Positions 32,901 to 36,399 of a DNA stretch of 64,000 nucleotides are shown here, one piece after another. The position numbers are program-made. Positions within the stretch are counted from its first letter, which is position 1. Each line of letters opens with the position of its first letter. The DNA lies in the NCBI RefSeq assembly GCF_988243305.1, contig NZ_OZ547136.1, one strand, 5' to 3'.

Positions 32901-35900
32901 CGAGTCTGCGATGAAACGTCACGTTGGCGGCGTTGCGGAATATCGCGCAGCAGAAGGTAAAACCGTTAAGCTGCCGCTGCGAGGCCCGGTTGAAAATACC
33001 GCGCGTGATATTTTGGGCGGCCTGCGTTCAGCTTGTACATACGTTGGGGCTTCACGCCTGAAAGAGCTGACCAAGCGCACCACGTTTATTCGTGTGCTGG
33101 AACAAGAAAACCGCATCTTCAACAACCTGTAATCTCCCAACGCTGGCGTGGAGCAACACGCCAGCGTTATCCCATTCCACTCATCGCATCGCCTAAATGG
33201 AAAATGGGCAGATACATTGCCACCACCAGCGTACCGATAATTCCTCCCGTTATGATCAGCAACGCCGGTTCCAGTAAGGCTGCGAGGTTATCCGCCAGCG
33301 CCAGTGTGTTATCCCGATGATGATGGGCGAGGTTGTCTAACATGAGATCCAGCGAGCCGGATGCCTCTCCTGTTCTCACTAATTGCAAACAGAGTGGGCT
33401 AAACTCACCGGCATTTTTTAGCGCCAGCCAGATGGGTTGACCGTTACTGATATCGTGCTGGATTTGTGTCAGAAGTTGCACCCAGTACGGGCAGCGCATT
33501 GTTTCTCTGACGCTCTCTACGCCCTGTAAAAAAGTAATGCCTGCACTTTGTGTCAGCGCCAGAATCGTAAAGATCTGTGTGAGTTTTTGTCCCCGCATCA
33601 GTGAACCCATAATCGGGATGCGTAACAGCAATTTCTGCCGTGCGATAAGCCTGGTTGGGTGGCGCATCAGCAGCTTATTGGCTATCGCCAGCAGAAAGCC
33701 GAATAGCACCAGCAACCAACCCCATTCGCCACTAAAGCTTGCCAGCGTCATGATCCCCTGCGTTAGCGCCGGTAGCGGAGTGTTAAAGGTCTTATAGATA
33801 GCGGCAAACTCCGGTAGAACAAAATGCAGCATTGCCACAACCACCATGATTGCCATCGCTAAAATGATAATGGGATAACGTAACGCTGATTTCACTTTGT
33901 CGGTCAACTGACGCTGGGCTTTTTGCTGACGCGCCAGTTCAAAGCAGCATTCATCCAGCTTACCGGTCAGTTCACCCGTGCGGATCATCGCCTGATAGAG
34001 CGGCGGAAATACCTCTGACCAGGGTAATAAGGCATTGGAAAAGGCAACGCCCTGTTCAAGATCGTGCGCCAGCGATTGCAGCAACGCTTGCCATTGCTTA
34101 CTGGGATGCTGTTCCGCCAGCAGTGCCAGCCCTTCAGAAAGCGTTAACCCGGCTTTGAGTAGCGTCGCCAGTTGATGAATGACTTCCGCGCTTTTATCTC
34201 CTCGCCACTGCGCAGAATTGATGGCGATTCGCTTCAGGCTAAGTGGGGTAACCATCTGTTGCTGTAGTGCTATGAGCAGCAAAGCACGGCTCTCAGCCCA
34301 TAGCATCCCATCTTGCGCATTGCCGTCGCCGGTTATGCCATGCCAGCGCCAGAGTTGCTTACTCGCCATGCGGCATCCCCAATACGCGGATTAACTCTTC
34401 AAAGGTGGTTAAGCCTTGCTCCACGGCCAGGCAGCCGTTTTCAAAAAGCGTACGCATACCCGCCTGTCGGGCGTGTGTTTCCAGCGATTCAACGTCGGTA
34501 TTAGCGGAAATAAGCTGGCGTATGATCGGTGTTATGGGTAGAACTTCAAATAAGGCCGTACGACCATAAAAACCGTGGTAGCAGTGTCTACAACCAGGGG
34601 CTTGCCAGCGGGGCAGCGGCGACGGCCATACATTGTCTGGAATATGGATTGGCTCCCCTTGCTGTCGGCGACAATGTGGGCAAAGTTTGCGTACCAGACG
34701 CTGGGCTATTACCAGCGTAAGCGCTGATGAGAGCATCCAGCGAGCAACGCCCATTTGCTGTAAACGCACCAGCGTTTCGCAGGTGGAGTTGGTGTGTAGG
34801 GTAGACAACACCAGGTGACCGGTTTGCGCCGCTTTAATAGCGATCTCTGCTGTTTCGCCATCGCGGATCTCTCCGATCATAATGACGTCAGGGTCCTGGC
34901 GCAATAACGCACGCAAAACGCCCTGAAAGGTAAGACCGGCACGCGGATGGATTTGCGTCTGGTTTAGTCCGGCTATGGGGATCTCAACCGGATCTTCGAC
35001 GCTACAAATATTAATATCAGCAGTATTCAGCGTTTGCAGGGCACTATAAAGCGTGACCGTTTTGCCGCTGCCTGTAGGGCCTGTTACCAGCACCAGTCCC
35101 TGTGGTTGTTGCAAGGCATGAGCAAAGTCCGCCAGTTGTAACGGCTGCATTCCAAGCGTGTTGACATCCAGTGCCTGACTCACCTGCTGTAACAACCTTA
35201 ATACCACCTTTTCACCACCCCGACATGGTAAGGTCGCGATACGAAATGAGACGGCGTTTCCTGCCAGTTCGACAGTGAATTGCCCGTCCTGCGGCAGGCG
35301 ATGTTCCGCAATATCCAGGTTCCCCAGCACTTTTAATCTGGCGGTTAATGCGACTCCGGCATCCGGTGAAACATCCGGTAAAGGATGCAATACGCCGTCG
35401 ATACGCAAGCGTATGCGGTAGGCATTGTCCGCTGGTTCGATATGAATATCAGACGCGCGTTGTTCCAGCGCAGATTGTAACGTTCGAGTCAGCAACTCTG
35501 CTTTGGGCTGATGCTTCTCATGAATAGCTACGGGCAATGTCTGTTGTGTGCGACTGGCGTGACCTTCCATTTGTTGGCGCGTCCAGCAGGTGATCTCAAT
35601 ACGTTTGGTGGTAGCGAAATGCAATGCGTCCAGTAGCTCATGCGAAGGTGCATCGACTACCGCAACATGAACCACCTCTTCGCTGGCATCCAGCAAGACT
35701 CCCTGATAACGCAGACACAGGGCGGTGAGCTGTGGAATATTCATTGCCGCTCCTTAGTTTGCGTCATCAAAGCGAAAGACATCTTCGCAGGCTTGCTGCA
35801 ATGCGCTGTCACTTTGAATATTGCAGTTGCGCGTCCAACCGGTGACGCCGTTTGCGTTATCCCAACCCGGCGTCATGACGACGCTTAGCCCATTGAGACT

Positions 35901-36399
35901 TTCTTGCCCGGTCAGCGACACCACGCCCTTTGCCACACTCATGGCTGAAACATAGCGGGTGGTGGTAGGCGAGGGGATGCCATTACTGCCACCGTCGCAG
36001 GTATCTAATCCACCATGTTCCAGCGCGCACAACTCTACGGCGGTACGGTAAGGCACAAAGGTTTGTAGCATGTCGGTGAGTGCGGCTTTGCGCAGGTAGT
36101 TTTGATAAGCGGGAATACCAATGGCGCTTAAAATGGCAATGATGCCAATAACCACCATCAGTTCGATAAGTGTAAAACCGCGTTGCTTGTCCATTTGTTT
36201 CGCTCCTTGATTTGGTTGGCGCTACTTTGGCAAACGCCATCAGCACAAGCGAGGGGCAAAAAACGAAACGGGAAAGCAGCTTCCGGAGTTTTTTATTACG
36301 TTGCAGCGAAAGACAAGAAATTTGCGAGGCGTTACGAAGAAAGTTGGGAAAGGGGAGATTATCCGCCCGCGATGGAGCGGATAAATCTGTCAGCAATCA

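What the first reader, a model, noticed from the sequence alone, without database searches (positions are those of the whole stretch)
33167..36194. Complete but classically cryptic type IV pilus operon ppdD-hofB-hofC
All three ORFs are full length with intact signatures (pilin N-terminal GFTLIELMVV, ATPase Walker A, platform protein). These genes are generally considered silent in laboratory E. coli, yet they are maintained without pseudogenisation; hofB and hofC overlap by 11 nt, suggesting coupled translation.
Basis: partly seen in the sequence, partly recalled or inferred. Interest (0 to 1): 0.3.

Follow-up and report, generated by a model that had tools for sequence, protein, structure and literature searches.

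The report
Intact ppdD-hofB-hofC pilus operon
This is the well-known E. coli ppdD-hofB-hofC operon (type IV pilin, its assembly ATPase and membrane platform), intact and under purifying selection but ordinary: nearly every E. coli genome carries it, and its regulation and function are already described.

Summary
On the minus strand lie ppdD (35754-36194, 146 aa), hofB (34359-35744, 461 aa) and hofC (33167-34369, 400 aa). A 9-nt spacer separates ppdD from hofB, and hofB overlaps hofC by 11 nt. Lengths and spacing match K-12 b0108-b0106. PpdD is identical to K-12; HofB differs at 8 residues and HofC at 11. There are no stops or frameshifts, and all signature motifs are present.

The genes are not decaying. 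dN/dS is 0.04-0.13. The region is in 5424 of 5426 complete E. coli genomes. The nadC-ppdD-hofB-hofC-guaC order recurs in most of 27 Enterobacterales species loci. The 11-nt overlap is kept in all 15 Enterobacteriaceae loci checked.

A CRP-S-type site (36341-36320) lies upstream of ppdD at a conserved position. It is identical in K-12, where published work shows Sxy- and CRP-dependent ~90-fold induction.

"Cryptic" therefore means "needs Sxy", not "dead". "Complete" applies to the operon only: the secretin, alignment proteins, minor pilins and prepilin peptidase are encoded outside the window.

Already known; low interest.

The parts
35754..36194 (-). ppdD: type IVa major prepilin, 146 aa. The 6-residue leader MDKQRG is followed by the mature protein starting FTLIE; Cys residues at 56/66 and 124/136.
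   Evidence: ORF. Pfam N_methyl 2.5e-10, plus Pilin at 21.6 bits, just below its 22-bit cut-off. NCBIfam equivalog NF007862 at 269 bits against a cut-off of 138. Residues 7-146 align with residues 1-140 of PDB 6gv9, the PpdD pilus, E=3e-91. The protein is 100% identical to K-12 PpdD.
34359..35744 (-). hofB: PilB/GspE-family hexameric assembly ATPase, 461 aa, with a short N-terminus.
   Evidence: Pfam T2SSE 2e-146 plus an MshEN-type N-domain. NCBIfam NF007755 at 822 bits against a cut-off of 617. Walker A, Asp box, Walker B, His box and Cys4 are all present. The best solved relatives are PilB ATPases, E~1e-104. 8 aa differences from K-12.
33167..34369 (-). hofC: PilC/GspF-family inner-membrane platform protein, 400 aa.
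   Evidence: Pfam T2SSF x2, 8.6e-57. NCBIfam NF007861 at 655 bits against a cut-off of 401. The best solved relative is PilC 3jc8, E=7e-44. 11 aa differences from K-12.
34359..34369 (-). 11-nt overlap of the hofB 3' end with the hofC 5' end; the hofC ATG lies inside the last hofB codons.
   Evidence: Junction sequence. The same -11 overlap is found in 15 of 15 Enterobacteriaceae loci, although HofB and HofC have diverged to 60-78% and 50-70% identity.
35745..35753 (-). 9-nt ppdD-hofB spacer. The ppdD stop codon is embedded in the hofB Shine-Dalgarno sequence (cTAAGGAGcggcaATG).
   Evidence: Sequence. The spacer is 9-13 nt, or a -4 overlap, in the other species.
36203..36208 (-). ppdD Shine-Dalgarno sequence AAGGAG.
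   Evidence: Sequence. AGGAG is invariant in the 15-species alignment A1.
36320..36341 (-). CRP-S-type site TTC-TTCGT-AACGCC-TCGCA-AAT. The core is 36338..36323, beginning 144 nt upstream of the ppdD ATG and centred about 136 nt upstream.
   Evidence: It is the best TGCGA-N6-TCGCA match in the intergenic region, 8 of 10 with a perfect right half. The best match falls in the same -150..-135 window in 22 of 27 loci, against a shuffle mean of 4.8 and maximum of 11. The 22-mer is identical in K-12 and in 8 of 9 other E. coli loci. It lies within the K-12 fragment shown to bind CRP, as judged from the primer sequences in PMC1635313.
33139..33168 (.). Inverted repeat between the convergent guaC and hofC genes: a 12-13-bp stem with a 6-nt loop that overlaps the hofC stop codon by 2 nt. 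It is a probable bidirectional transcript-end hairpin but has no T-tract.
   Evidence: Sequence. RNA fold -24.6 kcal/mol, z = -4.67, 0 of 200 shuffles as stable.

Best explanation
This is the chromosomal ppdD-hofB-hofC operon of E. coli. It is the core module of the species' native type IVa pilus and DNA-uptake machine: the major pilin, its extension ATPase and the inner-membrane platform.

Proposed mechanism:
1. Transcription starts from a weak promoter downstream of a CRP-S site. That site is productively used only when cAMP-CRP and the co-activator Sxy (TfoX) are both present, so the operon is off in ordinary laboratory culture.
2. One mRNA carries all three genes. hofB initiates 9 nt after the ppdD stop codon. 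hofC initiates inside the last hofB codons, which probably ties its translation to that of hofB.
3. Prepilin PpdD is inserted in the inner membrane. A prepilin peptidase encoded elsewhere (GspO/PppA) cleaves it after Gly6 and N-methylates it.
4. The HofB hexamer hydrolyses ATP and, through HofC, lifts pilins out of the membrane into a fibre.
5. The fibre is primed by minor pilins (PpdA, PpdB, YgdB, PpdC) and exits through HofMNOPQ, all encoded elsewhere.
6. The fibre serves DNA uptake and, in pathogens, adhesion.

What is shown here: gene identity, intactness, motif integrity, purifying selection, and conservation of gene order, of the overlap and of the CRP-S site. What is taken from the literature: Sxy/CRP induction, pilin processing, pilus assembly and DNA uptake. 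What is inferred: translational coupling, and that this strain's alleles behave like those of K-12 and EHEC.
For: ORFs and motifs. Curated equivalog models are passed for all three proteins. PpdD matches the solved EHEC pilus 6gv9/6gms from mature residue 1. HofB is closest to PilB ATPases and HofC to PilC. The architecture is the same as in K-12 and EDL933, with 0/8/11 and 1/8/13 aa differences.

Purifying selection: against E. albertii, dN/dS is 0.059 for hofC, 0.085 for hofB and 0.036 for ppdD. Within 10 E. coli, piN/piS is 0.12, 0.08 and 0.11. None of the variable HofB residues fall within the Walker A/B, Asp or His boxes or replace a motif Cys.

The region is present in 5424 of 5426 complete E. 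coli genomes, and the partner cluster hofMNOPQ in 5425 of 5426. ppdD-hofB-hofC recurs as single full-length matches, apart from the exceptions, in 27 Enterobacterales species loci, flanked by nadC and/or guaC (both in most). The 11-nt overlap is kept in 15 of 15 loci. The CRP-S site is a positional footprint in 22 of 27 loci.

Literature: Sxy induces ppdD about 90-fold and requires CRP and cAMP, and CRP binds the ppdD fragment (PMC1635313). Sxy yields processed PpdD, and DNA uptake needs hofQ (PMC3330819). EHEC makes PpdD pili, and EHEC ppdD-hofBC expressed in K-12 gives surface PpdD (PMC2649431). hofB and hofC are part of a plasmid-borne E. coli pilus-assembly gene set used to produce pili (10.1101/856302).
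Against: Nothing was measured in the source strain. None of the 8 HofB and 11 HofC substitutions relative to K-12 was tested for function.

HofB scores below the curated cut-offs for canonical PilB (487 vs 675.65 bits) and GspE (457 vs 630.25). Its alignment to solved PilB chains starts only at residue ~79, opposite PilB ~195-200.

HofB and HofC evolve 3-5 times faster at non-synonymous sites than the flanking housekeeping genes, and their codon bias is very weak (ENC 56 and 54). Selection on them is real but comparatively weak.

hofB is disrupted in 2 of about 119 sampled E. coli genomes. A hofC knockout in DH5alpha showed no change in artificial transformation (PMC12844161). The natural inducing signal is unknown.
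Confidence: 0.9

Rival explanations
1. The operon is a genuinely dead relic. It is never expressed to any selective effect, and it looks intact only because too little time has passed for it to decay.
For: No PpdD was detected in 72 ECOR strains in laboratory culture (PMC3330819). hofB and hofC have very weak codon bias, ENC 56 and 54. hofB is occasionally disrupted in E. coli. In Pseudescherichia vulneris, ppdD lacks its 5' end.
Against: dN/dS is 0.04-0.13 at every depth examined, from within E. coli to Citrobacter, where synonymous sites are saturated. Full-length ORFs and gene order are kept across genera that share only 35-60% protein identity. The catalytic motifs are intact. The regulatory site is conserved in position. 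Published work documents induction and function.
Confidence: 0.02
2. HofB and HofC are type II secretion components, as the RefSeq/PGAP name 'GspE' for hofB suggests. They would serve protein secretion rather than a pilus.
For: PGAP labels hofB 'type II secretion system protein GspE'. HofB scores almost equally against solved PilB (354 bits) and GspE/EpsE (338 bits). HofC's second-best curated model is GspF. The literature notes that PpdD can be assembled by a heterologous T2SS (PMC2649431).
Against: The genes are co-operonic with a major type IVa pilin, not with gspC-M. The curated GspE and GspF equivalog cut-offs are not met: 457 < 630 and 263 < 424. The operon belongs to the Sxy/CRP-S competence regulon. 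The EHEC orthologues build PpdD pili.
Confidence: 0.04
3. The machine is the same, but what maintains it by selection is host adhesion and virulence (the 'haemorrhagic coli pilus') rather than DNA uptake or use of DNA as a nutrient.
For: EHEC PpdD pili mediate adherence and invasion (PMC2920817 abstract). ppdD and hofB were hits in a CRISPRi screen for crossing a trophoblast layer (PMC12940985). The closest genomes to the window come from pig ETEC and poultry isolates.
Against: The operon is just as conserved in plant-associated and environmental Enterobacterales such as Brenneria, Erwinia, Pantoea, Serratia and Siccibacter. Its promoter carries the competence-type CRP-S site in those lineages too. 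The pilin is unusually conserved rather than diversifying, which is not what one expects of an exposed adhesin under immune pressure.
Confidence: 0.25

Closest known systems
E. coli K-12 ppdD-hofB-hofC (b0108-b0107-b0106)
   Same: Same locus between nadC and guaC. Gene lengths are identical (441/1386/1203 nt), as are the 9-nt spacer and the 11-nt overlap. The PpdD protein and the 22-bp CRP-S site are identical.
   Different: DNA identity is 96.5% for hofB and 96.6% for hofC, with 8 and 11 aa substitutions. There is a T instead of A in the A-rich stretch downstream of the CRP-S site (cgTAATAAAA vs cgAAATAAAA). Only 136 of 5424 genomes are >=99% identical to the window's allele.
EHEC O157:H7 hcpA-hcpB-hcpC (the same operon; haemorrhagic coli pilus; solved pilus PDB 6gv9/6gms)
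   Same: Orthologous and identical in architecture. PpdD differs at one residue (A121T), HofB at 8 and HofC at 13. PpdD aligns to 6gv9 over the whole mature protein.
   Different: Pilus production has been demonstrated for EHEC, on minimal casein medium and in reconstitution, but not for the source strain of this window.
Haemophilus influenzae pilABCD competence operon (CRP-S / Sxy regulon)
   Same: Same gene order of pilin, ATPase and platform. Same regulatory logic: a CRP-S site with a C at position 6 of the half-site, dependent on Sxy (PMC1635313).
   Different: The H. influenzae operon ends with the prepilin peptidase gene pilD (from my own knowledge). Here hofC is followed directly by the convergent guaC, and the peptidase must be encoded elsewhere.
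Pseudomonas aeruginosa / Myxococcus xanthus pilA + pilB-pilC (canonical T4aP)
   Same: Homologous pilin, ATPase and platform. The best solved relatives of HofB and HofC are PilB and PilC.
   Different: HofB (461 aa) aligns to solved PilB chains (566-588 aa) only from residue ~79, opposite PilB ~195-200. It fails the PilB equivalog cut-off. The pilin here is the most conserved of the three proteins, not the most variable.
Type II secretion GspE/GspF/GspG
   Same: Same ATPase and platform superfamilies, and a pseudopilin with the same N-terminal processing signal.
   Different: The GspE and GspF equivalog cut-offs are not met. There is no gspC-M context. The product is an extracellular pilus in EHEC.

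Membership tests
Type IVa major pilin (PpdD equivalog) | Short basic leader ending in Gly, then Phe+1 and Glu+5 in a hydrophobic N-terminal helix (class III signal / N_methyl motif) | tested here: met
   MDKQRG|FTLIELMVVIGIIAIL. Pfam N_methyl 39.9 bits against a cut-off of 21.2. The mature N-terminus aligns to residue 1 of 6gv9.
Type IVa major pilin (PpdD equivalog) | Whole-protein match to the curated family and to the solved PpdD structure | tested here: met
   NF007862 at 269 bits against a cut-off of 138. 6gv9 E=3e-91. 100% identical to K-12 PpdD. Pfam Pilin scored 21.6 bits, just under its 22-bit cut-off.
Type IVa major pilin (PpdD equivalog) | Cleavage and N-methylation by a prepilin peptidase | not testable with these tools
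   No peptidase gene lies in the window. Processed PpdD was reported in K-12 after Sxy induction (PMC3330819).
PilB/GspE-type assembly ATPase (HofB) | Walker A, Asp box, Walker B, His box and tetracysteine motif | tested here: met
   GPTGSGKT 222, VEDPVE 249, DPDVIMIGEIRD 284, GHLVLSTLH 309, CPHC 355 and CRHC 385. Pfam T2SSE 2e-146.
PilB/GspE-type assembly ATPase (HofB) | Score above the curated cut-off of the HofB-type equivalog (NF007755) | tested here: met
   822 bits against a cut-off of 617.
Canonical T4aP PilB (TIGR02538) | Full-length match, including the long N-terminal region, above the curated cut-off | tested here: not met
   487 bits against a cut-off of 675.65. The match covers HofB 69-454 and profile positions 169-561. 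HofB therefore works like PilB but belongs to a separate subfamily with a short N-terminus.
T2SS GspE (TIGR02533) / GspF (TIGR02120) | Score above the curated equivalog cut-off | tested here: not met
   GspE 457 vs 630.25; GspF 263 vs 424.
PilC/GspF-type platform (HofC) | Two T2SSF domains and a match to the HofC equivalog | tested here: met
   Pfam T2SSF, 2 stretches, 8.6e-57. NF007861 at 655 bits against a cut-off of 401.
Complete type IVa pilus system | Secretin and alignment complex (HofMNOPQ), minor pilins (PpdA/PpdB/YgdB/PpdC) and prepilin peptidase encoded together with the operon | tested here: not met
   The window is colinear with K-12 81.2-143.0 kb and holds none of these genes. hofMNOPQ lies at 3.52 Mb in K-12 and is present in 5425 of 5426 E. 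coli genomes. Its presence in the source genome cannot be checked from the window.
Sxy/CRP-S (competence) regulon | A CRP site of the S type (TGCGA-like half-site with C at position 6 / G at 17) upstream of the first gene | tested here: met
   TTCGT-N6-TCGCA at 36338..36323. C6 occurs in 16 of 18 and G17 in 16 of 18 orthologous sites. The site is a positional footprint in 22 of 27 loci against a shuffle mean of 4.8. It is identical to the K-12 site.
Sxy/CRP-S (competence) regulon | Induction that requires Sxy, CRP and cAMP | not testable with these tools
   Shown for K-12 ppdD (about 90-fold) in PMC1635313. Not measurable here.

The most novel reading that the evidence does not exclude
The ppdD leader holds several blocks that are as conserved across Enterobacteriaceae as the CRP-S site and the Shine-Dalgarno sequence, and none has an assigned role: CTGCAAC, cTGAA, TTTTTGCCCCTCGC and TGcCAnAGT. 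The pilin also evolves about half as fast as its own ATPase and platform. One reading the evidence does not exclude is that these blocks bind an additional, unidentified regulator. That regulator might supply the long-sought natural signal that switches on the 'silent' E. coli competence pilus. A related reading is that PpdD has a selected role partly independent of HofB/HofC.
Probability: 0.12. Interest if true: 0.45.

Novelty: already known. Interest (0 to 1): 0.1.

Why it matters
It matters little beyond correct annotation. The locus is a textbook E. coli core operon whose components, structure (PDB 6gv9) and regulation (the Sxy/CRP-S regulon) are published. The check confirms that this strain carries an intact copy under purifying selection. 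It also shows that 'cryptic' should be read as 'tightly regulated', not 'non-functional'. The one open question the locus touches is which natural signal induces the E. coli competence pilus. This window does not make that question more testable, although the conserved but unassigned leader blocks are a small lead.

Tried and rejected
1. Leader hairpin hiding the ppdD Shine-Dalgarno sequence. In the window, the MFE fold pairs GUUUCGUUUUUUG with CAAGGAGCGAAAC, but z is only -1.17 and 23 of 200 shuffles fold as well. On the 15-species alignment, 76.8% of cells pair, against 43-62% for slid controls, and 7 pairs change on both sides (13 of 500 shuffles reach this). However, the structure was derived from one of the aligned sequences. 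RNAalifold gives -0.45 kcal/mol and no compensatory pairs. Per-species partition functions show the SD paired with P about 0.8 even after shuffling the leader, and the partner segment differs between species. I rejected it as not above chance.

2. Sigma-70 promoter scan of 33000-36500. It found 2 sites where 3.0 are expected, and none upstream of ppdD. This fits an activator-dependent promoter but is uninformative. I could not fix the transcription start. The candidate -10 elements (TAATAA at 36298-36293; TGcCAnAGT at 36232-36224) give incompatible CRP-S spacings.

3. Rfam scan of the whole window. No RNA family matched inside the operon or its leader.

4. AT-rich or horizontally acquired island as the reason for silence. 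Rejected: GC is 52-53%, like the flanking genes, and gene order is conserved across Enterobacterales.

5. The apparent partial copy in strain GN03204 (79% coverage). This is only the origin of a circular record cutting the match.

6. Sinha et al. 2009 (PMC2725579), which lists the E. coli CRP-S sites, is not held. The site was therefore assigned from sequence, from the phylogenetic footprint and from the primer-defined EMSA fragment of PMC1635313.

7. ENC values for ftsZ, secA and murC used mis-registered coordinates. I discarded them.
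Full report
**Observation.** The finding's coordinates hold three back-to-back ORFs on the minus strand.
- ppdD: 35754..36194, 146 aa.
- hofB: 34359..35744, 461 aa.
- hofC: 33167..34369, 400 aa.

All three start with ATG. ppdD and hofB are separated by 9 nt, and the ppdD stop codon sits inside the hofB Shine-Dalgarno sequence (cTAAGGAGcggcaATG). hofB and hofC overlap by exactly 11 nt (34359-34369).

- PpdD begins MDKQRG|FTLIELMVV.
- HofB has Walker A GPTGSGKT (222), an Asp box, Walker B, a His box and two CxxC pairs.
- HofC has two T2SSF domains.

All three proteins pass NCBI's curated equivalog cut-offs for PpdD, the HofB-type ATPase and HofC.

The window is E. coli. The region matches 5424 of 5426 complete E. 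coli genomes, and the best hits are 99.9% identical. Against K-12 MG1655 (b0108-b0106), gene lengths, the spacer and the overlap are identical, and there are no stops or frameshifts. PpdD has 0 amino-acid differences (6 synonymous nucleotide changes), HofB has 8 and HofC has 11. Against EHEC EDL933, whose orthologues build a real pilus, the differences are 1, 8 and 13. Among ten diverse E. coli, 22 HofB residues vary, and none falls within the Walker A/B, Asp or His boxes or replaces a motif Cys. PpdD aligns from its first mature residue to the solved EHEC pilus (PDB 6gv9, E=3e-91). The best solved relatives of HofB are PilB ATPases, and the best for HofC is PilC.

**Is it maintained by selection?** Yes.
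- Nei-Gojobori estimates against E. albertii give dN/dS of 0.059 (hofC), 0.085 (hofB) and 0.036 (ppdD). The flanking genes give 0.013 (guaC) and 0.029 (nadC).
- Within ten E. coli, piN/piS is 0.12, 0.08 and 0.11, against about 0.02 for the flanks.
- A scan of species-representative genomes found ppdD-hofB-hofC in 27 Enterobacterales loci, with nadC upstream and a convergent guaC downstream in most (one flank is undetected in six: L017, L021, L026, L030, L066; L023 NadC only 37%). The loci span Escherichia to Yersinia, Serratia, Erwinia and Edwardsiella. The matches are single and full-length, apart from the exceptions noted below.
- The 11-nt hofB/hofC overlap is kept in 15 of 15 Enterobacteriaceae loci, although the proteins have diverged to 50-78% identity.
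- The unlinked partner cluster hofMNOPQ is present in 5425 of 5426 E. coli genomes.

Decay does occur, but rarely. Of about 119 genomes sampled evenly down the identity ranking, one has a 1-nt deletion in hofB and is annotated as a frameshifted pseudogene. Another has an internal hofB deletion of about 238 nt. In Pseudescherichia vulneris, ppdD has lost its 5' end.

Constraint on hofB and hofC is real but weaker than on their neighbours. Their dN is several-fold higher than that of the flanks, their synonymous diversity is twice that of the flanks, and their codon bias is very weak: ENC 56 and 54, against 43 for ppdD and 41 for guaC.

**Regulation.** No sigma-70 consensus promoter lies upstream of ppdD. 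The best match to the competence-type CRP-S motif (TGCGA-N6-TCGCA) in the nadC-ppdD spacer is TTCGT-AACGCC-TCGCA at 36338..36323, beginning 144 nt upstream of the ATG. In 22 of 27 species loci the best match falls in the same 16-nt positional window; shuffles give a mean of 4.8 and a maximum of 11. The S-type bases, C6 and G17, are each present in 16 of 18 sites. The 22-mer is identical in K-12. It lies inside the K-12 fragment, defined by the published primers, that binds CRP weakly (PMC1635313). In the same paper, Sxy induced ppdD about 90-fold, and induction absolutely required CRP and cAMP. Sinha and Redfield showed that Sxy induction gives processed PpdD and hofQ-dependent DNA uptake in K-12, while none of 72 ECOR strains made PpdD in ordinary culture (PMC3330819). 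EHEC assembles PpdD pili, and the EHEC ppdD-hofBC cluster gives surface PpdD in K-12 (PMC2649431). hofB and hofC are two of the twelve E. coli accessory genes placed on a plasmid to produce pili in E. coli (10.1101/856302).

**Interpretation.** This is the known E. coli core module of the type IVa pilus and DNA-uptake machine. It is transcriptionally off unless Sxy and cAMP-CRP are present. 'Cryptic' is historically accurate for laboratory culture but should not be read as non-functional.

'Complete' is true only of the operon. The window is colinear with K-12 81.2-143.0 kb. It holds no secretin, alignment-complex, minor-pilin, prepilin-peptidase or retraction-ATPase gene.

The RefSeq name 'GspE' for hofB is misleading. 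HofB fails the curated GspE cut-off and also the canonical PilB cut-off, because its alignment to PilB starts only at residue ~79, opposite PilB ~195-200. It works like PilB but forms its own subfamily with a short N-terminus.

Translational coupling of hofC to hofB is a reasonable inference from a conserved overlap. It remains untested.

**Leads that went nowhere.** I tested a leader hairpin pairing a U-tract with the ppdD Shine-Dalgarno sequence, and it is not above chance. Rfam finds nothing in the operon. Base composition is native at 52-53% GC.

**Verdict.** The feature is already known and of low interest.

Two minor points may deserve a specialist's glance. First, the pilin is more conserved than its motor and platform; against Pseudocitrobacter, PpdD is 92% identical, HofB 66% and HofC 56%. 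Second, the ppdD leader holds several conserved blocks with no assigned role.

Noticed in passing
window 40284-43064 (ORFs 40722..42503 + and 42503..42799 +): About 2.5 kb lies between aroP and pdhR that is absent from K-12. It encodes a 593-aa protein with an N-terminal T6SS Hcp domain fused to S-type pyocin and colicin/pyocin HNH DNase domains. A 98-aa colicin/pyocin immunity protein follows immediately, with its ATG overlapping the toxin's stop codon. This looks like an Hcp-fused T6SS DNase effector with its immunity partner.
   Followed up: partly
window 33167-36194 versus loci L004-L015, L022: The major pilin is the best-conserved protein of the operon. PpdD is 71-92% identical across Enterobacteriaceae, HofB 60-78% and HofC 50-70%. 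Against Citrobacter, dN is about 0.08, 0.16 and 0.21 respectively. This is the reverse of the usual type IV pilus pattern. ppdD also has stronger codon bias (ENC 43) than hofB and hofC (56 and 54).
   Followed up: partly
window 36224-36306 (minus strand, ppdD leader): Alignment of 15 Enterobacteriaceae upstream regions shows conserved blocks besides the CRP-S site and the SD: CTGCAAC (36306-36300), cTGAA (about 36285-36281), TTTTTGCCCCTCGC (about 36262-36249) and TGcCAnAGT (36232-36224). Their role is unknown. An anti-SD hairpin explanation was tested and is not supported.
   Followed up: partly
window 33167-37290 versus E. coli loci L084, L085, L088: Synonymous divergence changes abruptly along the operon between strains. 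For strain 315 against the window, dS is 0.003 in hofC, 0.018 in hofB and 0.062 in ppdD. For strain 104, dS is 0.207 in hofC and 0.110 in hofB. This indicates recombination breakpoints inside the operon. Only 136 of 5424 genomes carry an allele >=99% identical to the window's.
   Followed up: partly
window 33139-33168: A perfect 12-13-bp inverted repeat lies between the convergent guaC and hofC genes and overlaps the hofC stop codon. It folds at -24.6 kcal/mol (z = -4.67) and has no T-tract on either strand.
   Followed up: partly
window 36359-36384 (minus strand): The inverted repeat TTATCCGC-N10-GCGGATAA lies just after the nadC stop codon and upstream of the CRP-S site. It is probably the nadC transcript-end hairpin. 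I read it from the sequence and did not fold it.
   Followed up: no
loci L016 and L017 (Escherichia sp. ESNIH1, Pseudescherichia vulneris): HofB in these two species lacks the first ~56 residues, which form the MshEN-like N-domain. In P. vulneris, ppdD has also lost its start and signal peptide, and nadC is absent upstream.
   Followed up: partly
loci L083 (EPSSH018) and hit H145 (Z142-7): Rare E. coli genomes carry a disrupted hofB. One has a 1-nt deletion (CATCGGCGC to CATCGCGC) and is annotated as frameshifted. The other has an internal deletion of about 238 nt. I did not determine whether the first is a sequencing error.
   Followed up: partly
window 36293-36299: There is a polymorphism in the A-rich stretch about 30 nt downstream of the CRP-S site. 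The window has cgTAATAAAA and K-12 has cgAAATAAAA. If this stretch is the -10 element, the window's allele is closer to consensus. This was not tested.
   Followed up: no
window 2338-2487, 23988-24077, 29724-29793, 30197-30272, 44064-44177: Rfam gathering-score matches elsewhere in the window: Leu_leader, PssrA, STnc40, naRNA4 and tp2. The naRNA4 match coincides with a short segment between mutT and yacG that blast places twice relative to K-12.
   Followed up: no
window 59860-59864; window 55375-55506: About 160 nt present in K-12 between cueO and gcd (K-12 138676-138835) are missing here. The acnB-yacL spacer does not align with K-12 by megablast.
   Followed up: no
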